A stretch of DNA of 64,000 nt from Candidatus Stahliibacteriota bacterium. GTDB taxonomy: Bacteria > Hydrothermota > Tepidihabitantia > SM23-42. Shown here piece by piece: positions 17,336-34,508 of the stretch. The stretch is from assembly GCA_030602565.1 (NCBI GenBank), contig JAUVZL010000007.1, positions 761-64,760 of the forward strand. Reading direction: 5' to 3'. The translations under genes were made by a program, and so were the position numbers. Numbering within the stretch: position 1 is the first letter of the stretch; every line of letters starts with the position of its first letter. The notes under the pieces are model-generated. The model saw only the letters and a program-made list of their open reading frames with translations, made no database searches and was not told where the DNA came from.

Positions 17336-17409
17336 GGGCCTGTAGCTCAGTTGGTTAGAGCAGCTGACTCATAATCAGCGGGTCGGGGGTTCAAGTCCCT
17401 CCGGGCCCA
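17336..17409 (+). tRNA. tRNA-Met (anticodon CAT), elongator-type (or tRNA-Ile2 if lysidinylated)
   Basis: cloverleaf folded by hand: acceptor GGGCCTG/CGGGCCC, D-arm GCTCAGTTGGTTAGAGC, anticodon stem GCTGA/TCAGC loop CTCATAA, T-arm GGGGG-TTCAAGT-CCCTC; lacks initiator 3xGC anticodon stem. Confidence 0.85.
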
Positions 17410-17568
17410 TTTTAAGGAGAAACTCTAATCTCTAAATACGAAATTCTAAATTCCGATTTATGGTCGAGAATCCTCGCAAAACGGGACAATTTCAAAAATC
17501 CAATGCTCGAAATTCAAAACTGTTTCTGTAGGCAAAACACAGATATAATTAGCTGATAGCAGGAGAAA

Positions 17569-17961
17569 ATGAAAGTAACCAAGAAGAATATAGAAAAGCA
17601 TTTATCTAAATGGCAAGTTAAACTCCAGTTACGGGATTGGGATATATCTGTTAAGATTATACGCACAAGGTGGCGCAAATCAGGTGATATAAAGGTAGAT
17701 TTGGAAAATAGAAAAGCAACGCTTCTATTAAATCATAAACCCAAATGCCTGAATCTTGAAGAAATAATTGTGCATGAGTTATTACACATCAAGTTATATG
17801 GTTTGGATCAAATGATTGAGGATTTAATTGACATTCTGTATGGTAAGCGGAAGACAAAGAAACGACAGTTTGCATGGAATCAATTTATGTCGCTGCTTGA
17901 AACTACTGTTGAGGATTTGACAAAAGGATATCTTTATCATACAAATAACTCAAATAACTAA
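17569..17961 (+). CDS. small hypothetical protein with HExxH motif (HELLH)
   Basis: 130 aa; VHELLHIKL; SD AGGAG 4 nt upstream. Confidence 0.4.
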   Translation: MKVTKKNIEKHLSKWQVKLQLRDWDISVKIIRTRWRKSGDIKVDLENRKATLLLNHKPKCLNLEEIIVHELLHIKLYGLDQMIEDLIDILYGKRKTKKRQFAWNQFMSLLETTVEDLTKGYLYHTNNSNN

Positions 17962-17964
17962 TTC

Positions 17965-18528
17965 ATGGTTGAAAGCGTGAGTAAATCTAAACTCGATATG
18001 CGTTTATATGGTTTATGTGTATATCTTCGTCCTGTAATTATTGAAGACGCAGCAATAATTAGAAAATGGCATAATGATCCTGAACTAATGAGGATGGCAC
18101 GTGTAGGTGAGAAGAGAACTACCTTAAGGCAGGAAAGAGAAGATATAAAAATTGCACGCAGATCCAGTAATCAGACATATCATTTGATTTTGACCAAATT
18201 AGATAATACTCCTATTGGTTTTCTCAGATTCAATTTTATTGATAAATCAAGCGGTAATGTATGGTTTCGTATGATGATTGGAGAAAAGAAATCGCAAGGA
18301 AAAGGTTATGCTCGTGAGGCACTGCAGTGTTACTTAAAGTGGATGTTTGCTAAATTGAGGATTCACCGGGTTACGCTTGAATGTTATTCAACAAATCTAA
18401 GAGGTATCAAATTCTTTAAAAAAATAGGGTTTCAAAAAGAGGGTGTACTAAGAGAAGCGGTTTTCATTAATGGAAAATACCACGATATTATCTCGTTTGG
18501 TATGCTAAGAAAAGATTTCAAAGACTGA
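17965..18528 (+). CDS. GNAT family N-acetyltransferase (RimJ/RimL-like)
   Basis: 187 aa; acetyl-CoA binding region QGKGYAREAL; Acetyltransf_3-like N-terminus. Confidence 0.75.
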   Translation: MVESVSKSKLDMRLYGLCVYLRPVIIEDAAIIRKWHNDPELMRMARVGEKRTTLRQEREDIKIARRSSNQTYHLILTKLDNTPIGFLRFNFIDKSSGNVWFRMMIGEKKSQGKGYAREALQCYLKWMFAKLRIHRVTLECYSTNLRGIKFFKKIGFQKEGVLREAVFINGKYHDIISFGMLRKDFKD

Positions 18529-18543
18529 CATGCGATCAGATTG
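18525..18543. repeat. junction motif copy 1: CTGACATGCGATCAGATTG (includes stop TGA of GNAT gene)
   Basis: identical 15-nt core ACATGCGATCAGATT shared with 4 downstream junctions; following frame gives MRSDCKDCGNI* mini-ORF. Confidence 0.85.
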
Positions 18544-18549
18544 TAAGGA

Positions 18550-19743
18550 TTGTGGAAATATCTGATTATGCTAAAAGGCATCCATGAGATAGTGCTCGGT
18601 CTTTACTGGCGTTCTTGCCAGTATCCCTGGTACATCTTTGTCAATATTGGACTTGCTGTTATATTCTATTTATTGGCTCTTAAATATGGACCTACTCTTC
18701 GCACGTTTATTTGTGACAAAGTGCTGGGATTGAAATGTCCGTCTGATTCAGTCTTCGTCCTTTTACTGGATATTGGAATTCCTTTTATTCTCTGCTCTAT
18801 ACTCGTGGTCATACTGTCTCTGCCCTTGTTGTTGTATAAGGGCATAGTTTTTAATGTTTTGGGATACGCTCTTTTTTACTGGTTTTTGTTCTTCTCTATC
18901 CAGCTTTTTTATAATCTTCTGAGGAAACAGATTACTGCGCATTCCTTAACAATACCGTTGTTTGTTATAGGGATATTTCTGCTCCTTGTTTTTGTGATGG
19001 CATTATTTTATTACCCGAATCAAATCAAGCAGCGTTTTCTGGCATTTGAATCGGAAAAAATAACGGAAAAAGTCAGGATAATCCATTTATCCGATGTCCA
19101 TGCGGAAAATTATGGCTCACGAGAAAAAGAATTAATAAAGATCGTGAGTTCGCTTAATGCAGATATTATCTTGATAACTGGGGATATGTTCATCAAGCCA
19201 TACAAATACAATACCAGAGGATTTAATGCTGCGGTGAAAATCCTTGATCAATTGCATTCAAAGCATGGCGTCTATCTGGTAGAAGGGCATCACGATTACC
19301 AGGAAACCCATTACCTGGCTGATGTTCTTGGCGATAAAATCAATGTACTTAATGAGCAGTGGCACTGTCTTGATTTGCTTGGCATATCGATTTTTGGAGC
19401 AACTCTGTACAGCGAAATTGAGCCATTTAGTGAACCTGTTCCAGACGACAATTTTAACATATATTTCTCACACGATCCAGACAGAATGGAATACCGCAAA
19501 GACACGGATTTTGATCTGGCGTTGTTTGGTCATACTCATGCCGGGCAGGTTTACATTCCGGTACTCTCGTATTTAATCGTAGGGAAATACAGACATGGTC
19601 TCTATGATCATCATGGTATACCGATATACGTTAATGCTGGTATTGGATTAGAAGGATATCTTGCTCCACGTATACGTTGGTTTACCTATCCGGAGGTGGT
19701 TGTGATTGATTTGGAGCCTTTGGATCCAGGAGGCGAGGACTAA
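18550..19743 (+). CDS. membrane-anchored metallophosphoesterase (calcineurin-like)
   Basis: N-terminal TM helices then IIHLSDVHAE, ITGDMF, GHHDY, GHTHAGQ motifs; start TTG 18550 or ATG 18568. Confidence 0.7.
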   Translation: MWKYLIMLKGIHEIVLGLYWRSCQYPWYIFVNIGLAVIFYLLALKYGPTLRTFICDKVLGLKCPSDSVFVLLLDIGIPFILCSILVVILSLPLLLYKGIVFNVLGYALFYWFLFFSIQLFYNLLRKQITAHSLTIPLFVIGIFLLLVFVMALFYYPNQIKQRFLAFESEKITEKVRIIHLSDVHAENYGSREKELIKIVSSLNADIILITGDMFIKPYKYNTRGFNAAVKILDQLHSKHGVYLVEGHHDYQETHYLADVLGDKINVLNEQWHCLDLLGISIFGATLYSEIEPFSEPVPDDNFNIYFSHDPDRMEYRKDTDFDLALFGHTHAGQVYIPVLSYLIVGKYRHGLYDHHGIPIYVNAGIGLEGYLAPRIRWFTYPEVVVIDLEPLDPGGED

Positions 19744-19744
19744 T

Positions 19745-20575
19745 ATGCAAGCGAACAGTAATAGCGAAAAGAGTAAAGTCATAATGATGCTGAAGAGGAT
19801 TTTTGGTATACTGCTTGGCTTAATGATAAGTGCCATTGGTATGATTGTACTAGGGAATGAAAAATCGCTATTAGGATGGTTTTTCATGTGGTATCTGCCC
19901 TTGTTCTTAGGAGGAATTATTGCAGGCTACTTTGCACACGATAAAGGGTGGATTTCAGGTTTTATAATTGCTATGATTTGGGCAAGTAGCTCGGTATTTA
20001 CTGATCTAAGTGGCAAAACCCCAATGATTTTTGTTCTCTGGCATACAATGGGATTACCAGTTGGTGCTGCAAGTGGATATTTTGGTCAGTTCTTAGCACG
20101 AATGATCTCGGCAAAAATGCAGAGAAAAATTACCGCCGTAATTGTAGGCTCATTTGTTGCATTTGCATTATCAATGATATTGATTTGTCTTTTCGGTAAT
20201 GTAGGCAAAACGTGTTCATATAATGGAGGTCAGTTTTGGTTGAAAGACTTGATAAATAATTGTCTACCATTGCTTATTGGGGGTATTTTTGCAGGTATTA
20301 TTGCTCAACGACATGGCTGGGTCTGTGCTTTTCTCAGTTGGCTTTTCTTCCAAGCATTTACTATTGTAATCTTACTTATGATAGGACTTGGCAAACCAAT
20401 CATTTCCTCATTTGCCACATATGAGTGGTCATTTATTGCCAGAACGATGTCTCGTCTTATTTCTACATTGATTCCCGCTTGGTGGTTATATGCAATCTCG
20501 TTGTTTTCCGCTGTCATTGGTGGATATCTTGGACAGCTTTTGGTACAGAAATATCATAAAAGAATTCATAGCTAA
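19745..20575 (+). CDS. polytopic membrane protein, hypothetical
   Basis: multiple hydrophobic helices; ATG 19745 preceded by GGAGG. Confidence 0.5.
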   Translation: MQANSNSEKSKVIMMLKRIFGILLGLMISAIGMIVLGNEKSLLGWFFMWYLPLFLGGIIAGYFAHDKGWISGFIIAMIWASSSVFTDLSGKTPMIFVLWHTMGLPVGAASGYFGQFLARMISAKMQRKITAVIVGSFVAFALSMILICLFGNVGKTCSYNGGQFWLKDLINNCLPLLIGGIFAGIIAQRHGWVCAFLSWLFFQAFTIVILLMIGLGKPIISSFATYEWSFIARTMSRLISTLIPAWWLYAISLFSAVIGGYLGQLLVQKYHKRIHS

Positions 20576-20591
20576 CATGCGATCAGATTGG
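20572..20591. repeat. junction motif copy 2: CTAACATGCGATCAGATTGG
   Basis: stop TAA of upstream gene, 1 nt, ATG of next gene (MRSDW...). Confidence 0.9.
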
Positions 20592-21506
20592 TCTAAGAAA
20601 TACTGGAAAAATTTTTTGATTGAACAACGTAAATACCAATGGTTTGAAGATACAGTGGAAAAACTTGCTGATTGGATGCACTTAGAACACGGAATGGTTG
20701 TAGTCGATGTTGGATGTGGTTTGGGACAGTTGGGCCTGTTATACTGGCCTCACTTCGGCAGACAGGGACGATACATAGGAGTAGATCTTTCATATAAGTT
20801 GCTCCGGGATGCCAAAAAGGCTGCAAAAAACTGGATCAAGAAAGGTAAGTCATATTTTATAACAGGGGATGCTTACAAATTACCTTTCCCCGATGCCTTT
20901 GCGGACTGCGTTATGTGTCAGACCCTTTTTTATCACCAAAGAACTCCACAAATTGCACTAAGTGAGATGGTTCGTATAGCAAAACCTGGCGGTTTTATTG
21001 TATGTAAAGACCTTGATTATTTATCAACGTTTCTGGCAAAGGATTTCACATCACTTCCTGAATTTACGCTCAAGGAACAACTGCTTTCCGCGAAGGTTCT
21101 TTTGGTTTCACATAAGGGTAAAATAAAACTGGGCAGAGGAGATAACAGCATCGGTCGGAAAATTCCTATGATGATGAAAGAAGCAGGATTGGTCGATATA
21201 GATATAAAGAACAACGATCTTGTCTATTTTTTACAACCACCTTATGAAAGTCCACGTCAACAATATTATATCAGCATGTTAAAAAAGCGACTTAGACGAG
21301 AAAAAGATAATCTAACTTGGTGGAGGCAAGCAGAGGAAGAATTCGTAGCAGGAGGCGGTGAGAAAAATGATTTTATTCGTTATAAGAGGGTGGTGAATAA
21401 ACACAAATCATTATACAGAAAGCAGATAAAGAATGGTGAGTATTATCGCTGCACCCCAGGATATTTCTTGGTTACGATAGGTAGAAAACCAAAGAAAAGA
21501 AAATAA
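20577..21506 (+). CDS. class I SAM-dependent methyltransferase
   Basis: VVDVGCGLGQLG motif I; starts MRSDWSKKYW at junction motif. Confidence 0.75.
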   Translation: MRSDWSKKYWKNFLIEQRKYQWFEDTVEKLADWMHLEHGMVVVDVGCGLGQLGLLYWPHFGRQGRYIGVDLSYKLLRDAKKAAKNWIKKGKSYFITGDAYKLPFPDAFADCVMCQTLFYHQRTPQIALSEMVRIAKPGGFIVCKDLDYLSTFLAKDFTSLPEFTLKEQLLSAKVLLVSHKGKIKLGRGDNSIGRKIPMMMKEAGLVDIDIKNNDLVYFLQPPYESPRQQYYISMLKKRLRREKDNLTWWRQAEEEFVAGGGEKNDFIRYKRVVNKHKSLYRKQIKNGEYYRCTPGYFLVTIGRKPKKRK

Positions 21507-21527
21507 CTAACATGCGATCAGATTGGG
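21507..21527. repeat. junction motif copy 3: CTAACATGCGATCAGATTGGG
   Basis: read directly. Confidence 0.9.
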
Positions 21528-21712
21528 TAGCTATTTTAATGTGGATTTTTTTCGTGATGCCGATGGTAATTCTGTTAACGATAATCGCCCCGAGTCTGTT
21601 TGCGGATAAAGAAAGAGTATTTATCATACAGGGAATCATACTTTTCGTTGGAATTGCTATAATAATATTCAACATTATAAGAATAATTAAATCATTGAAG
21701 GATAAAGACTAA
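21512..21712 (+). CDS. small membrane protein (66 aa), starts MRSDW
   Basis: two hydrophobic helices. Confidence 0.35.
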   Translation: MRSDWVAILMWIFFVMPMVILLTIIAPSLFADKERVFIIQGIILFVGIAIIIFNIIRIIKSLKDKD

Positions 21713-21729
21713 CATGCGATCAGATTGGG
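21709..21729. repeat. junction motif copy 4: CTAACATGCGATCAGATTGGG (preceded by AAAGACT as in copy 1)
   Basis: read directly. Confidence 0.9.
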
Positions 21730-22289
21730 AACGCTTTTTCGATACTTTTCCGGAATTTGATTTCGAAGGGTATAAACTACGGGCTTTCCGGAAAAACGAT
21801 GCCGACGACCTATACAAATGTTTATCCGATCCTGACGTTACTGAATTAACGAGCTTTGAACTAAATTCATTTGACCAAATCACAAAACTGATCGAAGCCA
21901 GCAGCATCAAATTCAATAAAAAACATGGTGTAAATTGGGCAATAGTTGATAAAAAGACCGATCGGGTAATAGGTTTCTATGGTTTAGTATGGATCGACCA
22001 ACATAATTCCAGAACAGAAGTTGGTTTTATCTTGGCAAAGGAATATTGGAATAAGGGAATAACCACACAAGTTCTTAAACGGATTTTGGAATTGGTATTT
22101 ACCGAACTTGGTGTAAACAGCGTTGAAGCTACTGCAATGGTTGGTAATAATGCCTCAGCGCGAGTCTTGGAGAAATGCGGTTTCAAGAAAGAAGGCATAT
22201 TAAGAGAGTTGCGATATTGCAGAGGAAAATACCATGATTTTTGGAAATTCTCCCTATTACAGAAGGAGTGGGTACATGATAAGAACTAA
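21714..22289 (+). CDS. GNAT family N-acetyltransferase, starts MRSDW
   Basis: 191 aa; RimL-like pattern, NKGITTQVLK region. Confidence 0.75.
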   Translation: MRSDWERFFDTFPEFDFEGYKLRAFRKNDADDLYKCLSDPDVTELTSFELNSFDQITKLIEASSIKFNKKHGVNWAIVDKKTDRVIGFYGLVWIDQHNSRTEVGFILAKEYWNKGITTQVLKRILELVFTELGVNSVEATAMVGNNASARVLEKCGFKKEGILRELRYCRGKYHDFWKFSLLQKEWVHDKN

Positions 22290-22299
22290 CATGCGATCA
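22286..22299. repeat. junction motif copy 5 (partial): CTAACATGCGATCA then diverges; 17-codon leader ORF ends ATGA-overlapping next start
   Basis: read directly. Confidence 0.8.
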
Positions 22300-22340
22300 A
22301 AAAAGACAGAATGGTTTAAGGCCTATATGACGAATTTAGG

Positions 22341-23036
22341 ATGAAGAGGACATTTGGTGGTGTTTCTGATGAGAGAACAAGACAGGATGTTGATTTCATA
22401 ATTGATGTTCTTAACTTATCTGAAGGGGCAAAAATTCTTGAATTATTCTGTGGTATAGGAAGACACTCAATTGAACTCGCGAAGAGAGGTTATAAACCTG
22501 TTGGGATTGAATATAATCGAGAATATCTTAAAATCGCACAAAGCAAGTCGCAAGAGAAGAATGTTCATGTAAAATTTATTCAAGGCGATGTTAGAGAAAT
22601 TGAATTTGGTATTAATTTTGATGCTGCTATTATAATGTATCAGAGTTTTGGATACTTCAGCGATGAAGAAGACAAAATGGTTTTACAAAAAATCTATAAA
22701 GCCTTGAGACAAAACGGTAAATTTTTAATTGAAATTCTTAGCAAGGATTGGATTTTGAACAACTTTGTAGAGAATGAAGTGACTGAGGTAAATGGTATAA
22801 ACATAGATCAAACAAGAACATTCGATGCTACAACAAGCCGAGTGAATTTTACCATTAATAGACATTTAGAAGAAGGAGTGGTTACTAAAAAAGGTTCATG
22901 GAGACTTTATTCTTCATCTGAAATTATCAGCAAATTGGACAATATTGGATTCAAGTATGTTGCAGGTTACAATGATTTGGATAAAACTCCACTAACAAAG
23001 AATACAAGACTCATGCGTCTGGTGTTCGAAAAATGA
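22341..23036 (+). CDS. class I SAM-dependent methyltransferase
   Basis: ILELFCGIGRHS motif I. Confidence 0.75.
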   Translation: MKRTFGGVSDERTRQDVDFIIDVLNLSEGAKILELFCGIGRHSIELAKRGYKPVGIEYNREYLKIAQSKSQEKNVHVKFIQGDVREIEFGINFDAAIIMYQSFGYFSDEEDKMVLQKIYKALRQNGKFLIEILSKDWILNNFVENEVTEVNGINIDQTRTFDATTSRVNFTINRHLEEGVVTKKGSWRLYSSSEIISKLDNIGFKYVAGYNDLDKTPLTKNTRLMRLVFEK

Positions 23037-23659
23037 GTAGGTATAAAGCCATAATTTTCGATTGTGGCGGTGTTATCTTCACTTGTTCATTCGATAAAGC
23101 ACTCAACTATTGGGCAATGGTGAGTGGCAAGGATATTAATGAAATCAAAAATAAGTTTGATTTCGACGAAATATTTCAAGGACTTGAGAGAGGTGAAATT
23201 AATTCTACCGCGTTCAGAAAACATGCTTTGAGTAAACTAGGGTTAAAAATTAGTGATGAGAAATTTGACAAAGGATGGAATAGTATATATTTAGATTTAG
23301 TCCCTGGTATCAAACAGTTGCTCCAAGAATTAAAGCAAAAGCATAGACTGGTTGCCTTAACAAACACAAATGAAATACATGCAAAAAAATGGAAAATTAC
23401 GTTTGCATCTATTCTCAATTATTTTGAGAAAGTGTTCAGTTCCCACGAGATCCATGCACGAAAGCCAGAACGAAAAGCATATAACACCGTATTGAATTAT
23501 CTCCGATTAGAACCCAATGAAGTAGTATTCTTAGACGATAATCCTGAATACGTTCAAGCTGCCTCTGAGATGAATATTGCAAGTATTCACGTTACGTCAT
23601 TCAAGCAAATGGTTGAAGACCTAAGTAAGCTTGGCGTGGAGGTTAAGAGTGCCGTTTGA
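23033..23659 (+). CDS. HAD-superfamily hydrolase (variant motif I DCGGV)
   Basis: IIFDCGGVIF, later LTNTNE and FLDDN motifs. Confidence 0.6.
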   Translation: MSRYKAIIFDCGGVIFTCSFDKALNYWAMVSGKDINEIKNKFDFDEIFQGLERGEINSTAFRKHALSKLGLKISDEKFDKGWNSIYLDLVPGIKQLLQELKQKHRLVALTNTNEIHAKKWKITFASILNYFEKVFSSHEIHARKPERKAYNTVLNYLRLEPNEVVFLDDNPEYVQAASEMNIASIHVTSFKQMVEDLSKLGVEVKSAV

Positions 23660-23714
23660 GGTGTTAAGGGACATCTGTCCTTGATATTATTCCAGATTGA
23701 CATTATAATGTTAT

Positions 23715-24398: not shown

Positions 24399-24415
24399 AC
24401 TGTCTCTTCTTAGCT

Positions 24416-24536
24416 AACTCACCAGGATGTCCGAGATATTGAGTTCATCGAAATGCATTAGTATCGCCTGTCCCGAGTAATATCGAGGGGAGTAAACCGA
24501 GATGTCGAAGATCTCGAGTAAATCGAGAGGTTATAG
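24416..24536. repeat. short copy of composite dispersed repeat (left end AACTCACCAGGATGTC, internal GTATCGCCTGTCCCGAGTAATATCGAGGGGAGTA and CCGAGATGTCGAAGATCTCGAG blocks)
   Basis: blocks identical to 28282-28437. Confidence 0.8.
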
Positions 24537-24600
24537 GTAAGAAACAGTCAAAATATTGAGAGTGTTGTTTGAAGTGGTAAGGAATTTTGAACGAAAAGGC

Positions 24601-25896: not shown

Positions 25897-25927
25897 TGAC
25901 TATTACAAAATCTAAGCACACAATGAC

Positions 25928-25942
25928 CTACGGACGAGCACC
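25928..25942. repeat. 15-bp direct repeat CTACGGACGAGCACC (copy 1), inside hairpin CCTACGGAC..GTCCGTAGG
   Basis: identical copy at 27114-27128 on the other side of pilT. Confidence 0.8.
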
Positions 25943-26002
25943 ATTACAAATCAATTGTAACGGCGCAGGCAGTCCGTAGGTTTAGTTGAATCAAATTTAA
26001 AC

Positions 26003-26020
26003 GGTCGGTGAAAGCCGACC
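26003..26020 (-). terminator. hairpin GGTCGG-TGAAAG-CCGACC followed on minus strand by GUUUAAAUUUGAUU; candidate pilT terminator
   Basis: read directly. Confidence 0.4.
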
Positions 26021-26032
26021 CTATAACTCGTA

Positions 26033-27067
26033 TTATGGATAATTTAGAAGGATAGCGTCAGCTTGATCTTCAGTGATAAGTTTTTCCTCAAGCAGTTTAG
26101 TAATGGATTGACGCATAGTAATCATCCCTTCCCTACCACCAGTCGCCATTACATTCCTCAAGAAATATGCTCCCCTCTTCCGAAATATATGCCGCGTCGC
26201 GCCAGTTGCAACCATAATCTCACAAGCCACGCGCTTTTCACCTGAGATTGTGGGAATAAGTTCTTGATGAATTATTGCTTGGACTGAATCTGCCAACAAA
26301 TACCGGATGTGCATTTCGAAATCAGTTGAACCATAGCTGACCAGGCGTTCGATAACTTTGTCGATCGATATTGTGTGCAAAGTCGAAAGGACCAGAATAC
26401 CAGTTGATGCAGCAATCAAGGCAATTTTAAACGTCTCAAAATCCCGCATTTCACCAATCGATATAACGTCCGGGTTCTGACGGAGCGCGGCTCGTAAACC
26501 TTGAGCAAAAGTTTTCGTGTCTCGACCAACTTCTCGCTGCCGAACTACACTCTTGATATTTCTATGTACATATTCAATCGGATCTTCTATAGTTACAATA
26601 TGTTTTTTATAATTTCGATTTATTTCATGGATCACAGCCGCCATTGTCGTGGTTTTCCCTTGACTTGTGGCACCGGTAATCAGAACAAGACCCTTAGTTA
26701 AGGTTGTGAACTTTTTTATAACTGATGGTAGATGTAATTCGTCAATGGTTTGAGGATTATCGATCAAAATCCTCAAGACCGATCCGATGTTGCCATCGTT
26801 AAAGCTAATATTAATTCGATACCGATTCTGATGGTATGCAAGCATAAAATCAATATCTAACTCATCCTCAAAAGTTTTTATCTGATCATTGTTCATTAAA
26901 TCGTAGGATAATTTTTTGGATACATCGGAAGTCAAAACGGTTTCATTCATTGGGATTAAATCATCACCAATCCTGAAAAGAATTGGCGCATGTGCACAAA
27001 TATGAATATCTGTCGCATTTTTCTGTTTTGCTATTTCGAATATTTTCTTAAGCTCATCGGATAACAT
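26033..27067 (-). CDS. pilT: type IV pilus twitching-motility ATPase PilT
   Basis: 344 aa; Walker A GATSQGKTTT, PilT-family Asp/His boxes, typical length. Confidence 0.85.
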   Translation of the reverse strand: MLSDELKKIFEIAKQKNATDIHICAHAPILFRIGDDLIPMNETVLTSDVSKKLSYDLMNNDQIKTFEDELDIDFMLAYHQNRYRINISFNDGNIGSVLRILIDNPQTIDELHLPSVIKKFTTLTKGLVLITGATSQGKTTTMAAVIHEINRNYKKHIVTIEDPIEYVHRNIKSVVRQREVGRDTKTFAQGLRAALRQNPDVISIGEMRDFETFKIALIAASTGILVLSTLHTISIDKVIERLVSYGSTDFEMHIRYLLADSVQAIIHQELIPTISGEKRVACEIMVATGATRHIFRKRGAYFLRNVMATGGREGMITMRQSITKLLEEKLITEDQADAILLNYP

Positions 27068-27073
27068 TATAAT

Positions 27074-27101
27074 ATTCTAATCTGTTAGATTGCAATGTCA
27101 A
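27074..27101 (-). promoter_or_regulatory. sigma70 promoter TTGACA-16-TAGAAT ending 6 nt before pilT ATG (leaderless candidate)
   Basis: reverse complement of 27065-27110 read directly. Confidence 0.45.
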
Positions 27102-27113
27102 GATGCCCATACT

Positions 27114-27128
27114 CTACGGACGAGCACC
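27114..27128. repeat. 15-bp direct repeat CTACGGACGAGCACC (copy 2)
   Basis: identical to 25928-25942. Confidence 0.8.
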
Positions 27129-27217
27129 CCGTCGCTCTACCTTGACAAAGTCGATTTTTCATTATAATGTTACAGACAAGTTTGTGGTACAAACCTATCT
27201 GGAGAAAGGAGGTTATA

Positions 27218-27838
27218 ATGGAACAGAGCATTAACATCGAAGAAGTAAAGCGAAAGACGTATCGTGCCATTCAGCAGGATGGACTAGACAAAATCCTTCT
27301 GGGCATTTTGTTTGGTCTCTGCTCCCTCATCTATGTTAGTATGGTTTGGATAGCTGTTGTTGCGTGCAGCCCAGTATTAGCACAGTTTGCGAGAGAAATA
27401 ATAAGGAAAAAGCTTACCTATAATAGGATAGGCTATGTGGAGTTCTCCAAGAGCCTTGATAAAAAAGAAACACTATTCACTCTTTTGACTGTTACAATAT
27501 TCCTATCGCTCCTGGTGATAGTGAACCGTACGGGATTCAAAGCACTCTTACCTCTTCTCGTTGTTATCATTCCATCCGGTATATACTTCATGATTACCCA
27601 CTATCGATCGAGGGCTAAAATAGATTATATGATTACAATTCTTTTCCTGCTCAGTGGAGTCATTGGACTTTTCTTTACGCTACACGGGTATGATACTACC
27701 ACCGTATTGGTTGTCCAAATCAGCGGATTAGGTGTAGTATTACTCACGATTGGTATTGTTCAATTCATTCGTTTTCTCCGCAAGTACCCTAAACAAACTG
27801 TGGAGGCATCTAATGTCTTCAAAGAAAAAAGAAAATAA
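27218..27838 (+). CDS. membrane protein, hypothetical
   Basis: ATG 27218 after AAAGGAGG; 4-5 TM helices. Confidence 0.45.
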   Translation: MEQSINIEEVKRKTYRAIQQDGLDKILLGILFGLCSLIYVSMVWIAVVACSPVLAQFAREIIRKKLTYNRIGYVEFSKSLDKKETLFTLLTVTIFLSLLVIVNRTGFKALLPLLVVIIPSGIYFMITHYRSRAKIDYMITILFLLSGVIGLFFTLHGYDTTTVLVVQISGLGVVLLTIGIVQFIRFLRKYPKQTVEASNVFKEKRK

Positions 27839-28142
27839 AGATTTCCAGCCGATAACTGATATAGATCGAATTATTCATGAACCAGCGCGTCTCATGATCT
27901 TGGCTTTCCTGTACGTCGTTGAAAGGGCGGATTTTATCTTCTTGATGCGTCAGACCAATCTAACTAAAGGTAATCTGTCTTCTCATCTGAGTAAGCTGGA
28001 GGCTGCAGGTTATATCGATATCGAAAAGAAGTTTGTAAGCAAAATCCCGCGGACGCTTCTCCGTCTCACCAAGAGAGGCAGAAAAGCATTTCAGATCTAC
28101 CGACAGAACATGAAAAATGTATTCGAGAATCTGCCTGAATGA
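27813..28142 (+). CDS. winged-helix transcriptional regulator (HTH_34-like)
   Basis: IHEPARLMILAFL...LSSHLSKLEAAGYI pattern; overlaps upstream membrane gene. Confidence 0.55.
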   Translation: MSSKKKENKDFQPITDIDRIIHEPARLMILAFLYVVERADFIFLMRQTNLTKGNLSSHLSKLEAAGYIDIEKKFVSKIPRTLLRLTKRGRKAFQIYRQNMKNVFENLPE

Positions 28143-28281
28143 CAGATAGGCTCAGCGATTAAGATCGTAATATTATGGTTATTGCATTATAACGCACTGT
28201 GAATTAATGGTCCGCTACTTTACATCAGATGGGAATAGTCAAAATACCCCAGCGCATGATAAGTCCATTGTTTAACTCGTC

Positions 28282-28555
28282 CAACTCACCAGGATGTCGG
28301 AGATATCGTCGAAGATATCGAGGGTAATGAGATGAAGTATTTGAGATGCGTCAGTATCGAGTATCCCGAGATGTCGAAGATCTCGAGCACACCGAGAGGC
28401 ATCAGTATCGCCTGTCCCGAGTAATATCGAGGGGAGTATCCCGAGATGCTGAAAGTCCTGAGGAATCGAAGGGATTTGACCCCAATTTCTTCCCTTAGTA
28501 TCGAGAGAAGCCGAGATGAAGAATTGAAGGGACCTGATCCCCAACCTTTCCGCCA
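28282..28555. repeat. full-length composite dispersed repeat (MITE-like): left end CAACTCACCAGGATGTC, 8-bp-periodic TATCGAG/GTCCCGAG interior, right end tandem GAATCGAAGGGATTTGACCCCAATTTCTTCCC-like units
   Basis: fragments of same element at 24416-24536, 30322-30338 (left end only) and 31487-31576 (right end only). Confidence 0.8.
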
Positions 28556-28562
28556 CTCATTT

Positions 28563-28748
28563 TCATGGTTTTGGTATTTCTAACCTTCTGGTTATTTTAA
28601 TGACTAACTTTTTCGCAATTTCTGTGTGCCGTGGTATCGCTTCTATAATACCGTTCCTTGGATTCAACCAAAGAGAATGCTTAGTACCTTCGCGTTTCAA
28701 AATGCAACCATGACGACGAAGATGTCGCAATAATTTTATCCTTTTCAC
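28563..28748 (-). CDS. hicA: type II toxin HicA (mRNA interferase)
   Basis: 61 aa; LRHLRRHGCILKREGTKHSLW pattern of YcfA/HicA. Confidence 0.8.
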   Translation of the reverse strand: MKRIKLLRHLRRHGCILKREGTKHSLWLNPRNGIIEAIPRHTEIAKKLVIKITRRLEIPKP

Positions 28749-28961
28749 TTATATTGAAATTGTTTCTTTTATAGCCTTGGCTGGCATGCCTCTTAGTGAA
28801 TCCTCAAGACGGTCTTGTAGAATTAGTTTAATGGCTTCGGTCAAGTTTTTTCGACATTCTTCCAACGTGCACCCCTGACCATTTGCACCAGGAACTTCGG
28901 GACAGTAACCAATCCACCATTTACCGTCCTTTTCATAAATTGCATGAAATAGATTTGCCAT
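28749..28961 (-). CDS. hicB: HicB-family antitoxin
   Basis: 70 aa UPF0150/HicB-like; adjacent and co-directional with hicA. Confidence 0.65.
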   Translation of the reverse strand: MANLFHAIYEKDGKWWIGYCPEVPGANGQGCTLEECRKNLTEAIKLILQDRLEDSLRGMPAKAIKETISI

Positions 28962-29056
28962 CTTGCACCTCTTTTTTTCAAGAATTTTAAACCTTATTCC
29001 TCCTTCATTATATATGAAGTCAACTAAAAGTCAATAGACCGATTTGCACTAACTCT

Positions 29057-29096
29057 ATCACTGTCCCGCTCACGAGGACTCTTGGAGTAATCTGCT
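29057..29096. repeat. 40-bp exact repeat ATCACTGTCCCGCTCACGAGGACTCTTGGAGTAATCTGCT (copy 1)
   Basis: identical at 30393-30432; 16-bp partial reverse-complement copy at 48926-48941. Confidence 0.9.
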
Positions 29097-29193
29097 ATTT
29101 TTACCCCGTTAGATGACTGCTAAAGTGTCTTTTAGACACCTTAAATACTTGCGAGCAATTAACAATGTTTGACTGCCAATTTAATAAAGATTT

Positions 29194-29823
29194 CTAACGG
29201 GGTGAATCAGTGTCCCGAGTGTATCGAGAGAAGGTTGTCGAGGGGATTTTCTTTTTGTTAGTTTCATTTTTGTTTATTTTATATATTATGTGATAACGAT
29301 ACCATATGCCTCTTGTTTTTCTGAAACCTGCTTTCTCATAAACTCTTATTGCTGGTATATTTTCTTTATGGGGAGGGACTAGAAGGATATCAGCTTTTGT
29401 CTCGGAAAAAACGTATTGCACGATGGTTTTCATTACCTCGGTGCCGTACCCTTTATTCCAGTAAGTTTTGATTAACTTAACATCAGTCATTAGAGCAAGC
29501 TTATTTTTTGGAGCTTTATAGTTTGGACACGACCAGCCTGATCTTAATCTTCCCAACCCACTTTCTCCAATCCGCCCTTCTTTCTTAAGTTTAACAATAA
29601 AATGGATTTCAGTGTTACCATACTTTGTTATATTTTTTTTATATTTCTCAAACCATTTGCAGATTTGGGCGTAATTCCAGTTTTTTGCAAAGCCAGCGTA
29701 CCGCATAATTTCGGGATCATTCCAGAGTTTTAATAGAAACTTCAAATGTTGTTGAGTCATAGGATGGATCACTAGATGTCGTGTCTTTATAATTTGCCTT
29801 TTTTTCATATTTTGTACATTCAT
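29194..29823 (-). CDS. GNAT family N-acetyltransferase
   Basis: 209 aa; acetyl-CoA-binding-like region NKGYGTEVM. Confidence 0.7.
   Translation of the reverse strand: MNVQNMKKRQIIKTRHLVIHPMTQQHLKFLLKLWNDPEIMRYAGFAKNWNYAQICKWFEKYKKNITKYGNTEIHFIVKLKKEGRIGESGLGRLRSGWSCPNYKAPKNKLALMTDVKLIKTYWNKGYGTEVMKTIVQYVFSETKADILLVPPHKENIPAIRVYEKAGFRKTRGIWYRYHIIYKINKNETNKKKIPSTTFSRYTRDTDSPR
29209..29272. repeat. ~65-bp dispersed element GTGTCCCGAGTGTATCGAGAGAAGGTTGTCGAGGGGWTTTTCTTTTTGTTRGTTTCATTTYTG (copy 1)
   Basis: copies at 30622-30694 and partial 31367-31411. Confidence 0.85.
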
Positions 29824-30264
29824 TTATTCCTGAGATGGCTCATAGATTTTTTGACCGCCTGTCCAGCTGTCTCGCCATTCAATCTTGTTGATGTTGATTT
29901 TTAAAAGACAATATTCTTTAGACTCCGGACCATCTGGAAAATACTGTGACAAATCAAATGTTGCCAACTTCCATATTCTCCTTTTTTCTTCCATGTCTGG
30001 AATTATTTCAGCTTGACCGATGATAGTAGCAGCTTTGTCCCCACGGGGTTGTTCTGCAAAAGCAAGACAAATTTTGGGATTTTGCTGAATTTGCTTCACC
30101 TTTCTGGAAGTATTGAAAGTCGTTACCCAGACCGACAGATTGTCTTCAACTATTGGTGACACTGGACGAACTCTTGGTTGGTCTCCATCACAAGTGGCAA
30201 GATATGCATGGAGACAATTTTTTTTCATTATTTCTATTATTTTTTGTTTGTCAGATGAATTCAT
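29824..30264 (-). CDS. pyridoxamine 5'-phosphate oxidase-family (PNPOx-like/general stress protein 26) FMN-binding protein
   Basis: start at MNSSDK with strong SD AAAGGAGGTGG; split-barrel pattern. Confidence 0.65.
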   Translation of the reverse strand: MNSSDKQKIIEIMKKNCLHAYLATCDGDQPRVRPVSPIVEDNLSVWVTTFNTSRKVKQIQQNPKICLAFAEQPRGDKAATIIGQAEIIPDMEEKRRIWKLATFDLSQYFPDGPESKEYCLLKININKIEWRDSWTGGQKIYEPSQE

Positions 30265-30392
30265 TATCCACCTCCTTTTTTTCAAAGAGTATATTCTGAA
30301 GTTAACACATGTCAAGCCAATCCAACTCACCAGGATGTATCTCTACGAGATTCGATTACGGCGATAAACCAAATAAATTACATACCAGTGAT

Positions 30393-30432
30393 ATCACTGT
30401 CCCGCTCACGAGGACTCTTGGAGTAATCTGCT
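30393..30432. repeat. 40-bp exact repeat (copy 2)
   Basis: identical to 29057-29096. Confidence 0.9.
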
Positions 30433-30621
30433 CATAATCGCTGTCCCGCATAGCGTGGATCCTCGTCTTGTATGGCGGGATAATCATACGAGTCTACTCG
30501 TTGCATTTAATTATTGTTGTATCTGTAAATCACTGTCATCTGTTGTTAATCGCTGAAATTGACCCTAGGAGATAATGGCTGTCACGAATTTTTCTCAAAT
30601 CTATGATTTGATTGCAAAACT

Positions 30622-30694
30622 CAGTGTCCCGCCTGTCCCGAGTGTATCGAGAGAAGGTTGTCGAGGGGTTTTTCTTTTTGTTGGTTTCATTTCT
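30622..30694. repeat. ~65-bp dispersed element (copy 2, with extra GTCCCGCCT prefix)
   Basis: see 29209-29272. Confidence 0.85.
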
Positions 30695-31064
30695 GGGCTC
30701 CTTATATCTATTGGTTGCCGTAGGTCTCGTCGTAGATCTCGAAGTATTGAGAGGAGTGTATCGAGAGGCAATTTTTTCATAGACGGAGCAACCGTTTCTC
30801 CAAGTCTTAACAAGATGACACCATTTGCTTCTTTTGTAGCATTTGTCAAACGTTTAGATTTGACGCCATTTGTTTACAAAACAGTATAATCAAAGATAAT
30901 AAAGTCATATTGTCATGCACCGTCCCTACTTCCCAACAGTTAATTTTAGACAACCAGGCGGACGAGGATCGGTCTCAAGATTCTTTATCGAACGTAAAAT
31001 TCGAATAGCATCATTAGGGGAGAGTCTATAGATGAATTTTTCGGCTGATGGTTTTATTAAAACT

Positions 31065-31277
31065 CTATAATTCAAGTTTAGTATTATGCAATTTTTCGTA
31101 GCGTTCTACTACATCAGAAACTGAAATTGGTTGCCCTTTCTCTTCTTTTGCTTTCTTTAAGTCCTCAAGATCCTCAAGGATCTCAATTAATTCAGTGAAA
31201 GCTGGATTAGATTTTGCCCATTCCCAAATCTCTTTTGAAATAATAACTGAATCCTTTTCTATGTTGACTTTCGACAT
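31065..31277 (-). CDS. small hypothetical protein (70 aa), only ORF in a repeat-rich 1.5-kb stretch
   Basis: acidic helical protein; no family assigned. Confidence 0.3.
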   Translation of the reverse strand: MSKVNIEKDSVIISKEIWEWAKSNPAFTELIEILEDLEDLKKAKEEKGQPISVSDVVERYEKLHNTKLEL

Positions 31278-31486
31278 AAGATCCTCCTTATATTCAGTAT
31301 ACGATTATATGTCTAATTCACATTCTGTCAACATAAATGGTGCACGTTTTTATCTGAGTTCTGCAAAGCGAGACGATGAGGGGTTTTTCTTTTTGTTAGT
31401 TTCATTTTTGGCTGCACAAAATTTACTGTCCTCGTTTTCTGTAAAAGAAACGGGACTTCATCAATTTGTGAATTGTGAAGCTGAAA

Positions 31487-31576
31487 GTATCGCCTGTCCC
31501 GAGATGTCGAAGATCTCGCCTGTATCGAGTTTATCGAGATGAGTGAATCGAAGGGATTTGACCCCAATTTCTCTCC
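31487..31576. repeat. right-end fragment of composite dispersed repeat
   Basis: AGTATCGCCTGTCCCGAGATGTCGAAGATCTCG...GAATCGAAGGGATTTGACCCCAATTTCTCTCC. Confidence 0.8.
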
Positions 31577-31579
31577 TGG

Positions 31580-31702
31580 ATACCCTGGTCCCCTGATCAA
31601 GTCAGAGGATGCCAGGGTATGACCCCCGTACGATTAACATCCTACGGGACAGGCGGGATAAATAAAGCGAAAAGACTGAATACCCTGGTCAAGCCAGGGT
31701 AT
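31580..31702. repeat. two hairpins with identical 9-bp stems ATACCCTGG/CCAGGGTAT (31580-31620 and 31680-31702)
   Basis: second has loop TCAAG; both followed by TATGAC. Confidence 0.7.
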
Positions 31703-31889
31703 GACAATAAGTATGCTATAGGGTCAAATATGCCTTCGTTGGAAACTACGGCATACATGCCTACCCTCTCCCTCAATGGGAGAGGGAATTTTTTATTTGA
31801 CTTTTTATCGATATCCTATATAATCAAAACGCAATGAGATTTCAGGGGATAGGACACGAGAGCAGTGCAAGTGATTTATTCTTAATGAT

Positions 31890-32336
31890 ATGCAAAACTA
31901 TTTGCCTATGAAGTGGTCTGTCCATCCAGCAAAAGATAACTTTATAAAGACTATTTTCAGTCTTATTTTCATCGTTGGTTTCCTCGTGTTTGTATCAATT
32001 TTCTACGGAGTTTTCTGGGCTATCCTGGGTTCCATAATTCTTTTTGTCAGTTTGTATTCCTACTTTTTTCCATCGCATTATGAAGTGAATCAGGAGCAGG
32101 TGATTATCAGGAATATATTCCTTACCCAACGCAGGCGCCTGGCCGAGTTCAAGAAAGTCTACCGAGGTAAAAATGGGATACTACTCAGTCCGTTCAAAAG
32201 AAAAACCTTTTTGAACCAGTTTCGCGGTGTTTTTCTTTTGTTGCCGAGAGAACGACAGGAAATTGAGGACTACGTAAGGGGGCTGGTTGAAAGTGATGAA
32301 ATGACCGAGGACGAGCATTCGAAGAAAGATGGTTAG
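31890..32336 (+). CDS. membrane protein, hypothetical
   Basis: two long hydrophobic helices. Confidence 0.4.
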   Translation: MQNYLPMKWSVHPAKDNFIKTIFSLIFIVGFLVFVSIFYGVFWAILGSIILFVSLYSYFFPSHYEVNQEQVIIRNIFLTQRRRLAEFKKVYRGKNGILLSPFKRKTFLNQFRGVFLLLPRERQEIEDYVRGLVESDEMTEDEHSKKDG

Positions 32337-34499: not shown

Positions 34500-34508
34500 T
34501 TACGTACA

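What the first reader, a model, noticed from the sequence alone, without database searches (positions are those of the whole stretch)
17336..31890. tRNA-Met-anchored accessory region packed with modification enzymes, TA genes, an orphan pilT and several repeat families
From the tRNA-Met gene to about 31.9 kb the content changes from housekeeping genes to small accessory-type genes. These are an HExxH mini-protein, GNATs, methyltransferases, HAD, metallophosphoesterase, a thioredoxin lipoprotein, pilT flanked by direct repeats, a wHTH regulator, hicAB, another GNAT and a PNPOx-like protein. Multiple inter-related dispersed repeats concentrate here, and there is a 1.5-kb nearly gene-free repeat-rich tail (30.3-31.9 kb). 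tRNA genes are classical island integration sites.
Basis: partly seen in the sequence, partly recalled or inferred. Interest (0 to 1): 0.55.

Follow-up and report, generated by a model that had tools for sequence, protein, structure and literature searches.

The report
Variable gene-cassette islet beside tRNA-Met
This 14.5-kb stretch next to a tRNA-Met gene in an uncultured Stahlbacteria (WOR-3) genome is a real strain-variable accessory region, with no integrase, whose left half is a row of single genes joined by a conserved 20-base sequence at which related strains gain and lose genes.

Summary
tRNA-Met is at 17336-17409, every listed gene type is confirmed, and 72% of the window's dispersed repeats (16-mers or longer) lie in this 23% of the window.

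Six related WOR-3/TA06 genomes have tRNA-Met followed within 70-280 nt by the 148-aa gene and recJ. So 17.53-31.87 kb is extra DNA here. Close relatives carry different genes at the same spot.

It is not a classical tRNA island. I found no integrase and no repeat of the tRNA 3' end. Homology with empty sites runs about 115 nt past the tRNA.

The left half (17.57-24.4 kb) is a co-oriented array with few promoter-like sites. Its gene junctions carry a 20-nt motif, CTAACATGCGATCAGATTGG, which supplies a stop codon and then an ATG. About 48 credible copies occur in related contigs, and 43 of them sit at a gene's stop codon. The motif is the exact breakpoint between strains: one relative lacks a 3165-bp motif-to-motif block, and the same genes reappear between motifs at other loci. 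It has no hairpin and no linked recombinase, so the mechanism is unresolved.

The right half consists of modules with their own promoters, separated by mosaic repeats.

Interest is moderate. The island is ordinary; the junction motif appears undescribed.

The parts
17336..17409 (+). tRNA-Met (anticodon CAT), left anchor
   Evidence: ARAGORN; Rfam tRNA, 72 bits.
17410..17529 (.). Spacer after the tRNA that is still shared with empty-site relatives. The true left boundary of the variable DNA is about 17525-17530.
   Evidence: Alignment with L005 and L024.
17569..17961 (+). 130-aa HExxH mini-protein, selecase-like minimal metallopeptidase; first gene of the array
   Evidence: No Pfam family. 427 homologs in WOR-3, TA06 and Bathyarchaeota records. 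Model pLDDT 91; best fold match is selecase 4qhi, E 8e-4.
17965..18528 (+). GNAT acetyltransferase 1. Together with the HExxH gene it forms the constant proximal part shared by close relatives.
   Evidence: Pfam Acetyltransf_3, 7e-22. 97% nt identity to L099/L100 up to position 18543.
18525..18544 (+). Junction motif copy 1 (CTGACATGCGATCAGATTGT); homology breakpoint with L099, L100, L094 and L106
18550..19743 (+). Membrane-anchored metallophosphoesterase (YaeI/LpxG-like)
   Evidence: Pfam Metallophos; NCBIfam. A 61%-identical homolog follows HExxH plus the motif at another locus in L101.
19706..20575 (+). Multi-pass membrane protein (weak DUF3792/TIGR04086 resemblance)
20572..20591 (+). Junction motif copy 2 (exact)
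20576..21506 (+). Methyltransferase 1; it starts at the motif's ATG (MRSDW...)
   Evidence: Pfam Methyltransf_11. Called as 309 aa from this ATG in L112.
21507..21526 (+). Junction motif copy 3 (exact)
21512..21712 (+). 66-aa hydrophobic ORF starting at the motif's ATG
   Evidence: no family.
21709..21728 (+). Junction motif copy 4 (exact); right end of the 3165-bp block that L106 lacks
21714..22289 (+). GNAT acetyltransferase 2; it starts at the motif's ATG
   Evidence: Pfam, 2e-31. Homologs lie in other arrays in L104, L105 and L106.
22286..22305 (+). Junction motif copy 5, degenerate (CTAACATGCGATCAAAAAAG)
22341..24398 (+). Methyltransferase 2 (22341-23036), HAD hydrolase (23033-23659), terminator-like and promoter-like sites, then methyltransferase 3 (23715-24398)
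   Evidence: Pfam. In L089 the methyltransferase 2 homolog sits between two motif copies. Promoter and terminator scan.
24413..24530 (.). Mosaic repeat E1, left flank of the pilT block
   Evidence: Logan contigs L112 and L098 break here.
24556..28142 (.). Four-gene block: thiol-disulfide oxidoreductase with DUF2092-like N-terminus (24556-25896, +), PilT-type ATPase (26033-27067, -), membrane protein (27167-27838, +) and HTH_34 regulator (27750-28142, +)
   Evidence: Pfam. Contig L098 is 100% identical. PilT homologs are also solitary in varied contexts.
28280..28560 (.). Mosaic repeat E2, right flank of the pilT block
28563..28961 (-). hicA-like (28563-28748) and hicB-like (28749-28961) toxin-antitoxin pair, with a promoter-like site at 29034-29007
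   Evidence: Pfam (HicA is below the cut-off).
29056..29272 (.). Repeat Ea: a 41-nt perfect copy plus a 62-nt copy. It overlaps the 3' end of GNAT3.
29194..30330 (-). GNAT acetyltransferase 3 (29194-29823) and PNPOx-like protein (29824-30330, probable start at 30264), with a promoter-like site at 30315-30288
   Evidence: Pfam.
30321..30695 (.). Repeat Eb, a direct copy of Ea on the other side of the GNAT3-PNPOx pair
   Evidence: Pieces are 88-97% identical to L082.
30926..31277 (-). 49-aa ORF that looks like a truncated RelE/ParE toxin (30926-31075) and a 70-aa putative antitoxin (31065-31277), with a perfect promoter-like site at 31331-31304
   Evidence: Translations. No Pfam support; the assignment is by eye only.
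31349..31786 (.). Repeat E4 (31349-31577), two ATACCCTGG...CCAGGGTAT hairpins (31580-31702) and a terminator-like hairpin (31764-31786)
   Evidence: Logan contig L111 starts at 31747.
31890..32336 (+). Conserved 148-aa membrane-protein gene, right anchor. Relatives start at the ATGAAGTGG found at 31908. It is followed by recJ, mglA-like, mglB-like and dnaA-like genes.
   Evidence: Synteny in L005, L019, L020, L021, L022 and L024.

Best explanation
The region is a flexible genomic islet. It sits in a recombination hot spot between tRNA-Met and the conserved 148-aa gene/recJ block of a Candidatus Stahlbacteria (WOR-3) genome. It was not delivered as one integrase-borne island. It is assembled from small units that are gained, lost and exchanged at internal repeats.

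Left half (17.57-24.4 kb): an operon-like array of co-oriented genes, most lacking a strong promoter-like site of their own. Five of its gene junctions (18.5-22.3 kb) carry the lineage-specific 20-nt element CTAACATGCGATCAGATTGG. The element closes the upstream gene (TAA) and offers an ATG or a purine-rich ribosome-binding stretch to the next gene. Recombination between copies of this element adds, deletes and relocates cassettes.

Right half (24.4-31.9 kb): self-promoted modules (pilT block, hicAB, GNAT-PNPOx, a decayed toxin-antitoxin pair) separated by mosaic intergenic repeats. These repeats probably serve as substrates for the same kind of turnover.

Shown: the insertion relative to other species, the strain-level mosaicism, breakpoints exactly at the motif, and reuse of cassettes at other loci.

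Inferred: that the motif is itself the recombination site (site-specific or short-homology), which enzyme acts on it, and any role of the right-half repeats.
For: Empty site in other species: L005, L019 (complete chromosome CP070834), L020, L021, L022 and L024 have DUF4438 - tRNA-Met - 148-aa gene - recJ - mglA. Only 69-283 nt separate the tRNA from the 148-aa gene.

Same site, other content: L001 has NUDIX then the motif. L099/L100 have GNAT1, the motif, another GNAT and an ABC transporter.

Motif as breakpoint:
- 97% nt identity with L099/L100 ends at position 18543.
- L106 joins window 17382-18543 directly to 21704-22327 through a single motif. The window therefore has a 3165-bp motif-to-motif extra block.
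- L094 has GNAT1, the motif, then a gene resembling methyltransferase 2.
- L101 has HExxH, the motif, then the phosphoesterase at a different locus.

Cassette reuse between motifs elsewhere: methyltransferase 2 in L089, NUDIX in L091, GNAT2 in L104/L105. L108 carries four copies.

Motif statistics: none expected by chance in the window. 54 unique matches at up to 5 mismatches were found; about six in unrelated loci look like chance. In 43 of the remaining 48, an open frame of at least 60 codons (or one running to the contig edge) stops within 12 nt of the motif; 28 of those use the motif's own TAA. All copies in a contig share one orientation.

The motif is absent from the window's housekeeping gene junctions.

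No promoter-like site matching 11 or 12 of 12 positions lies inside 17569-23659. Such sites precede the right-half modules.

The array is confirmed by independent contig L112.
Against: - No recombinase, integrase or transposase was found in the region, among the window ORFs scanned, or beside arrays in L086, L089, L090, L099 and L100.
- The motif has no hairpin and only weak dyad symmetry (inspection), unlike known recombinase sites.
- Its position between a stop codon and a ribosome-binding site fits an mRNA-level role equally well.
- The metagenome contigs were retrieved by exact 19-mer match. Conservation is therefore biased upward for one copy per contig.
- The stretch 28.4-31.7 kb, the order of the repeat-flanked modules and the right junction are not confirmed by an independent contig.
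- No relative was found that shows turnover at the right-half repeats.
Confidence: 0.7

Rival explanations
1. The 20-nt motif is mainly an mRNA-level intercistronic element. It would act in translational coupling or re-initiation (stop, ATG, mini-ORF, ribosome-binding site) or as an RNA-processing or binding site. Cassette turnover would then be incidental homologous recombination at the only sequence the junctions share.
For: The motif always lies in the sense orientation at a stop codon. It is followed by purine-rich GGAG/GGAA stretches, with the next start 8-40 nt later or at its own ATG. Mini-ORFs from its ATG often end near the next start. It is unstructured, as ribosome-loading sequences tend to be. 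No recombinase is linked. In L105 the copy at the start of the GNAT2 homolog has drifted (ATGCGAAAAAATTGG) while still opening the 191-codon ORF.
Against: It is absent from all housekeeping co-directional junctions of the window. It occurs where no downstream co-directional gene exists (L001). Conservation is at nucleotide level with no synonymous variation in most copies. Two of three L105 copies share the same variant, suggesting recognition by a trans-acting factor. Moving cassettes between unrelated loci through 20-nt homology would be inefficient for RecA-type recombination (established knowledge).
Confidence: 0.3
2. A classical tRNA-targeting integrative island (prophage, ICE or pathogenicity-island type) that has lost its integrase and its attachment repeats through decay.
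For: It lies next to a tRNA gene, has lower GC and is absent from other species. The closest relative, L001, carries a partial duplicate of the tRNA 3' end about 130 nt downstream. This shows that integrations into this tRNA have occurred in the lineage.
Against: The window has no tRNA 3'-end repeat. No integrase, transposase, phage or conjugation genes were found. There is no plasmid or phage similarity. The boundary lies about 115 nt beyond the tRNA. Strain differences are cassette-by-cassette, not all-or-none.
Confidence: 0.1
3. An assembly or binning artefact: unrelated fragments joined through the dispersed repeats.
For: Short-read Logan contigs break exactly at the repeats (24.47, 28.43 and 31.75 kb). 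The stretch 28.4-31.7 kb has no independent confirmation.
Against: Both outer flanks are the two sides of one syntenic locus in six relatives, which a chimeric join would not restore by chance. Segments 17365-24489 and 24465-28433 are each confirmed at 100% identity and overlap by 25 nt. The left junction is also seen in L099, L100, L094 and L106.
Confidence: 0.07

Closest known systems
Integron cassette arrays and CALINs (attC clusters lacking an integrase)
   Same: Both have co-oriented, mostly single-gene, largely promoterless cassettes read from one end. A conserved repeat lies at every junction, right at the stop codon. Cassettes are gained, lost and found in other arrays. The content (acetyltransferases, small unknown proteins, toxin-antitoxin genes nearby) resembles what I recall of sedentary chromosomal integrons; that recollection is from my own knowledge.
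   Different: The junction here is 20 nt, not 55-140 nt. It has no R''/L''/L'/R' inverted structure and does not fold. No IntI integrase or attI site was found. The repeat also supplies the next gene's ATG.
Additive flexible genomic islands and Neisseria 'minimal mobile elements'
   Same: A fixed chromosomal spot between conserved flanking genes (here tRNA-Met and the 148-aa gene/recJ) holds different gene sets in different strains. No mobility genes are present. The comparison concept is from my own knowledge of the literature.
   Different: Here much of the exchange is bounded by an internal 20-nt junction element, not only by the conserved flanks.
Classical tRNA-linked genomic or pathogenicity islands
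   Same: tRNA adjacency, accessory content, lower GC and absence from relatives.
   Different: No integrase and no tRNA-derived direct repeat. The boundary is not at the tRNA 3' end.
R64 shufflon sfx sites (19-bp repeats used by the Rci recombinase) and Acinetobacter pdif modules (28-bp XerC/D sites bounding gene modules)
   Same: Both are precedents, recalled from my own knowledge, for short (19-28 bp) sites that partition DNA into exchangeable modules. The sfx sites are also asymmetric.
   Different: sfx sites are inverted, lie within coding sequence and drive inversion. pdif sites have two recognisable Xer arms and alternate in orientation. Neither overlaps stop and start codons. No Rci or Xer gene is linked here.
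Mosaic intergenic repeat arrays (REP/BIME, Neisseria NIME/Correia-type)
   Same: The right-half repeats are short, mosaic and shuffled in order between genomes (window 30423-30926 versus L082). They are restricted to intergenic DNA and also occur elsewhere in the window.
   Different: No sequence similarity to any named family was tested or found. Rfam gives nothing.

Membership tests
Classical tRNA-integrated genomic island | Located directly at a tRNA gene | tested here: met
   tRNA-Met at 17336-17409; variable DNA starts about 115 nt downstream.
Classical tRNA-integrated genomic island | Tyrosine or serine integrase gene at one end | tested here: not met
   No integrase or transposase family in any main ORF of 17.4-31.9 kb or in the tail ORFs. 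None among the other window ORFs scanned.
Classical tRNA-integrated genomic island | Direct repeat of the tRNA 3' end at the distal boundary | tested here: not met
   No second copy within 3 mismatches of 22 nt; the best short-BLAST matches are 8-11 nt, at chance level.
Classical tRNA-integrated genomic island | Absent from related genomes; deviant composition | tested here: met
   Empty site in six relatives. GC is 0.355-0.40 against 0.41-0.45 in the flanks. Tetranucleotide distance is raised at 17.5-25 kb only.
Integron / CALIN | attC sites: 55-140 nt imperfect inverted repeats (RYYYAAC...GTTRRRY) that fold as single strands | tested here: not met
   The junction is 20 nt and its minimum free energy as ssDNA is 0 kcal/mol on both strands. 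No conserved sequence extends beyond about 28 nt.
Integron / CALIN | IntI integrase with an adjacent attI site and promoter | tested here: not met
   No recombinase was found in the region, in the other window ORFs scanned, or in array-bearing loci. The rest of the genome could not be searched.
Integron / CALIN | Array of co-oriented, mostly promoterless cassettes that vary between strains | tested here: met
HicAB toxin-antitoxin | Adjacent small HicA (RNA-binding fold) and HicB genes | tested here: inconclusive
   HicA_toxin scores 23.3 bits, below the 27-bit cut-off. UPF0150 (HicB-like) scores 30.7 bits, above 27.3. Homologous pairs exist in L023 and L086.
Type IV pilus retraction ATPase PilT | T2SSE ATPase of about 345 aa, closest to annotated PilT/PilU proteins | tested here: met
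   T2SSE E-value 4e-42. Named homologs at about 56-61% identity, labelled PilT/PilU, come mostly from Planctomycetota. None of the ORFs scanned in the window is another pilus gene. Homologs are also solitary.
Minigluzincin (selecase-like) metallopeptidase | Protein of about 110-130 aa with HExxH in a helix after a three-stranded sheet | tested here: inconclusive
   Model pLDDT 91. Foldseek best hit is selecase 4qhi: E 8e-4, probability 1.0, but TM-score only 0.43-0.51. No sequence-family hit.

The most novel reading that the evidence does not exclude
Stahlbacteria may carry a previously undescribed gene-cassette system that works like an integron but is built differently. In this reading, a 20-bp unstructured site overlapping the stop codon of one gene and the start of the next is recognised by an unlinked, still unidentified recombinase. 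That enzyme excises and inserts single promoterless genes at many chromosomal arrays, including the one beside tRNA-Met.
Probability: 0.3. Interest if true: 0.75.

Novelty: new variant of a known kind. Interest (0 to 1): 0.5.

Why it matters
As a tRNA-adjacent accessory islet the region is ordinary. It does give a clean example of strain-level gene turnover in an uncultured phylum (WOR-3/Stahlbacteria) for which I found no published account of mobile DNA or repeats.

The junction motif is the part worth following. If it is a recombination site, it would be a second, structurally different way of building promoterless gene-cassette arrays. It would also bear on the open question of how integron-type cassettes come to be trimmed so tightly to gene boundaries. 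If it is instead an RNA-level coupler, it would be an unusually long and invariant intercistronic signal restricted to accessory operons.

Either way, the motif is a practical marker for finding flexible loci in these genomes.

Tried and rejected
- **tRNA 3'-end repeat.** I searched for a direct repeat of the tRNA 3' end by pattern (up to 3 mismatches) and by short BLAST. None was found.
- **Integrase, transposase or recombinase.** I ran Pfam on all main ORFs of the region, the tail ORFs, ten other window ORFs and ORFs beside arrays in L086, L089 and L090. I also read the gene tables of L099, L100, L107 and L108. None was found.
- **attC-like folding of the motif.** There is no structure on either strand.
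- **Dyad symmetry.** By inspection, only 5 of 8 positions match between the motif's two halves, which is not beyond chance once the possible registers are considered.
- **Complementarity to the 16S rRNA 3' end.** By eye, against E. coli sequence recalled from memory, nothing was convincing. No Stahlbacteria 16S sequence was available.
- **Rfam.** Both the gathering and E-value thresholds returned only the tRNA.
- **Plasmid and phage collections.** No megablast match.
- **Viral contigs.** One 17-mer match (L097), not at a credible gene junction, is consistent with chance.
- **nhmmer profile of the motif.** No copies in other-species loci L002-L080.
- **RelE-like ORF and putative antitoxin.** No Pfam support; the labels remain by eye.
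- **HExxH protein.** No hit by sequence in Pfam, NCBIfam or PDB; only the fold search gave a lead.

Full report
**1. Observation**

The window carries a single tRNA gene, tRNA-Met(CAT), at 17336-17409.
- three GNAT acetyltransferases;
- three class-I methyltransferases;
- a HAD hydrolase;
- a membrane-anchored metallophosphoesterase;
- an AhpC/Redoxin protein with a DUF2092-like N-terminal half;
- a PilT-type ATPase;
- an HTH_34 regulator;
- a HicA/HicB-like pair, with HicA below Pfam's cut-off;
- a PNPOx-like protein.

The HExxH mini-protein has no sequence family. It belongs to a family of 427 homologs. Its model is confident (pLDDT 91), and the best fold match is the minimal metallopeptidase selecase, with moderate TM-scores.

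GC drops to 0.355-0.40, against 0.41-0.45 in the flanks. Tetranucleotide distance is raised at 17.5-25 kb only.

Dispersed repeats do concentrate here: 72% of repeat coverage at 16-mers or longer lies in 23% of the window. Related 8-nt-period repeats also occur at 2.4, 5.9 and 7.9 kb.

The flanks are housekeeping genes. One side has the DUF4438 gene, a radical-SAM gene and an McsB-type kinase. The other has recJ, mglA/B-like genes, a DnaA-like gene, cheR/D/B and folD.

**2. Source organism and synteny**

The DUF4438 protein next to the tRNA is 96% identical to proteins of Candidatus Stahlbacteria / WOR-3 genomes assembled from metagenomes.

In six related genomes the order is DUF4438 - tRNA-Met - 148-aa gene - recJ - mglA. 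These are L005, L019 (a complete chromosome), L020, L021, L022 and L024. Only 69-283 nt separate the tRNA from the 148-aa gene. The window's 14.3 kb between these anchors is therefore extra DNA.

Homology with the empty sites runs from the tRNA to about 17525. It resumes just before the ATGAAGTGG start at 31908.

The closest relatives have different content at the same place:
- L001 has a NUDIX gene followed by oppositely oriented methyltransferase, GNAT and IS-like genes.
- L099 and L100 (97% nt identity in the flank) have HExxH, GNAT1, another GNAT and an ABC transporter.

**3. Not a classical island**

- No second copy of the tRNA 3' end exists in the window.
- No integrase, transposase, phage or conjugation gene was found.
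- Nothing matches plasmid or phage collections.

Only L001 shows a partial duplicate of the tRNA 3' end about 130 nt downstream. That is a trace of a past integration in that lineage.

**4. The junction motif**

*In the window.* Five gene junctions in the left half carry CTAACATGCGATCAGATTGG. Three copies are exact and two are degenerate. None is expected by chance, and there is no copy elsewhere in the window. The TAA inside the motif, or a stop codon immediately before it, ends the upstream gene. The ATG then opens either the next gene (methyltransferase 1, the 66-aa ORF, GNAT2: all start MRSDW) or a mini-ORF.

*In other contigs.* An exact 19-mer scan of metagenome contigs found 16 sediment or estuary contigs, many with 2-4 copies, all in one orientation per contig. 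Further copies came from contigs reached through protein homologs (L099-L108).

*Position relative to genes.* There are 54 unique matches at up to 5 mismatches. About six of them, in unrelated loci, look like chance. Of the remaining 48, 43 have an open frame of at least 60 codons (or one running to the contig edge) that stops within 12 nt of the motif. Twenty-eight use the motif's TAA and nine have a stop directly before it. In sixteen, the motif's ATG opens a long ORF. Downstream the sequence is purine-rich (AAGAGG, GGAGG), and the next start is usually 8-40 nt away.

*Neighbouring genes.* They are diverse: GNAT, methyltransferase, NUDIX, HAD, kinase, GrpB, formyltransferase, type-IX-secreted surface proteins and many small unknown proteins.

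*Other properties.* The motif does not fold. No known RNA family matches it. It was not found in the loci of more distant relatives. A degenerate version does follow the HExxH gene in the distant complete genome L107.

**5. The motif is the breakpoint of strain mosaicism**

a) Identity with L099/L100 ends at 18543, the last bases of copy 1.

b) L106 aligns to window 17382-18543 and then directly to 21704-22327, and the two alignments overlap only in the motif. The window thus has a 3165-bp motif-to-motif block (phosphoesterase, membrane protein, methyltransferase 1, 66-aa ORF) that L106 lacks. L106's single motif is a hybrid of copies 1 and 4.

c) L094 has GNAT1, the motif, then a gene resembling methyltransferase 2.

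d) L101 has HExxH, the motif, then the phosphoesterase at an unrelated locus, without GNAT1.

e) Methyltransferase 2, NUDIX and GNAT2 homologs each occur between two motif copies in other arrays (L089, L091, L104, L105). Homologous upstream genes are followed by unrelated downstream cassettes (L088 versus L093; L083 versus L086).

The GNAT1-motif junction thus has four different successor genes across the relatives examined.

**6. Mechanism**

What is shown is that cassettes are gained, lost and relocated with boundaries at the motif. How this happens is inferred.

A site-specific system is favoured by:
- relocation of cassettes between unrelated loci;
- nucleotide-level invariance;
- restriction of the motif to accessory arrays;
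- copies at array ends or in a leader with no gene to couple to (L001, L082);
- a shared variant in two of three L105 copies.

Against it:
- no recombinase is linked to any array;
- the site lacks the symmetry or folding of known sites.

The main rival is an mRNA-level intercistronic element (stop, restart, ribosome-binding site) at which occasional homologous recombination occurs. I put about 0.3 on that reading and about 0.3 on a dedicated cassette system. The rest of my weight goes to motif-centred recombination of unspecified kind.

**7. The right half**

It has a different make-up. Promoter-like sites matching 10-12 of 12 consensus positions precede the oxidoreductase gene, pilT, hicB, the PNPOx gene, the 70-aa ORF and the 148-aa gene.

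The modules are separated by mosaic repeats:
- E1 (24413-24530) and E2 (28280-28560) flank the four-gene pilT block.
- Ea (29056-29272) and Eb (30321-30695), which include a 41-nt perfect copy and a 62-nt copy at 95% identity, flank the GNAT3-PNPOx pair.
- E4 (31349-31577) combines pieces of both families.

Pieces of the tail recur, in a different order, in L082.

PilT's named homologs, at about 56-61% identity, are mostly from Planctomycetota. Closer unnamed homologs are also solitary, next to varied genes. The tail holds a 70-aa ORF and a 49-aa ORF that by eye look like an antitoxin and a truncated RelE/ParE toxin, without Pfam support. I found no relative that documents turnover at these repeats, so their role is inferred by analogy.

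**8. Reliability of the assembly**

Logan contigs from run SRR14872667 match the window at 100% over 17365-24489, 24465-28433 and 31747-42336, and they break at the repeats. The stretch 28434-31746 is unconfirmed. The two outer flanks are the two sides of one syntenic locus in six relatives, which argues against a chimeric contig.

**9. Verdict**

The closest known kinds are additive flexible genomic islands or minimal mobile elements for the locus as a whole, and integron/CALIN cassette arrays for the left half. The left half fails the defining attC and IntI tests for integrons. A search of the paper library for "Stahlbacteria" returned nine papers, none of whose titles or abstracts concern repeats or mobile DNA. 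To my knowledge the motif is undescribed.

Interest is moderate: 0.5 overall, and higher if the motif proves to be a recombination site.

Noticed in passing
window 2440-2521, 5917-5963, 7870-7928, 6358-6392: Intergenic tandem arrays with an 8-nt period (GGAGTATC/GGAGTAAC and relatives) lie just after or between genes. They resemble the GAGNNNNC-type units inside the island's mosaic repeats, so this looks like a genome-wide intergenic repeat style.
   Followed up: partly
window 45750-46131: An intergenic stretch of about 480 nt between folD and a PMT_2 glycosyltransferase gene contains 84-88-nt tandem repeats (54-nt copies, 89% identical). It is bracketed by a 20-nt inverted repeat that is 95% complementary.
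   Followed up: no
window 53038-53098 and 52061-52861: A 22-nt tandem repeat (GCTGGGAATGACAAGAGGGGAT, 2.7 copies) lies just downstream of a gene with an AbiEi antitoxin C-terminal domain.
   Followed up: no
window 48930-48956: An inverted copy of the sequence around the 41-nt island repeat (ACATAC..GTGATATCACTGTCCCGCT) lies 18.5 kb away, upstream of the gene at 49024. It may be a shared operator or promoter-proximal element.
   Followed up: no
L001 3440-3600 (minus strand): The closest relative has a partial duplicate of the tRNA-Met 3' end (AAGTCCCTCCAAACCCATTCATTGCAG) about 130 nt after the tRNA. This is an att-like scar that the window lacks.
   Followed up: partly
L019 7968-10009; L022 3842-7951: In these relatives the other side of the tRNA is also variable: 2-4 kb lie between DUF4438 and tRNA-Met, against 93 nt in the window. 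In L002-L004 and L006-L008, DUF4438 is not next to the tRNA at all.
   Followed up: no
L082 4909-4937 (minus strand), with downstream genes at 3790-4872 and 1516-3789: A solitary exact motif copy sits in the leader of an RNase_H_2-domain gene followed by an MrfA-like DEAD-box helicase with an MZB zinc domain. No co-directional gene of at least 60 codons ends at it.
   Followed up: partly
window 34913-36871: A 652-aa protein with two Bac_DnaA-type ATPase regions and an acidic C-terminal tail lies directly after mglA-like and mglB-like genes and before a che gene cluster. This arrangement is conserved in the relatives.
   Followed up: no
L105 158-1308: Two of the three motif copies in this more distant contig share the same variant (CTAACATAYGGACAGATT..). 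This hints at concerted change of the motif within a genome.
   Followed up: partly
window 25930-25977: A 48-nt segment in the convergent gap between the oxidoreductase gene and pilT is about 90% identical to segments in L099, L100 and L090. It is another small dispersed element, next to a terminator-like hairpin.
   Followed up: no
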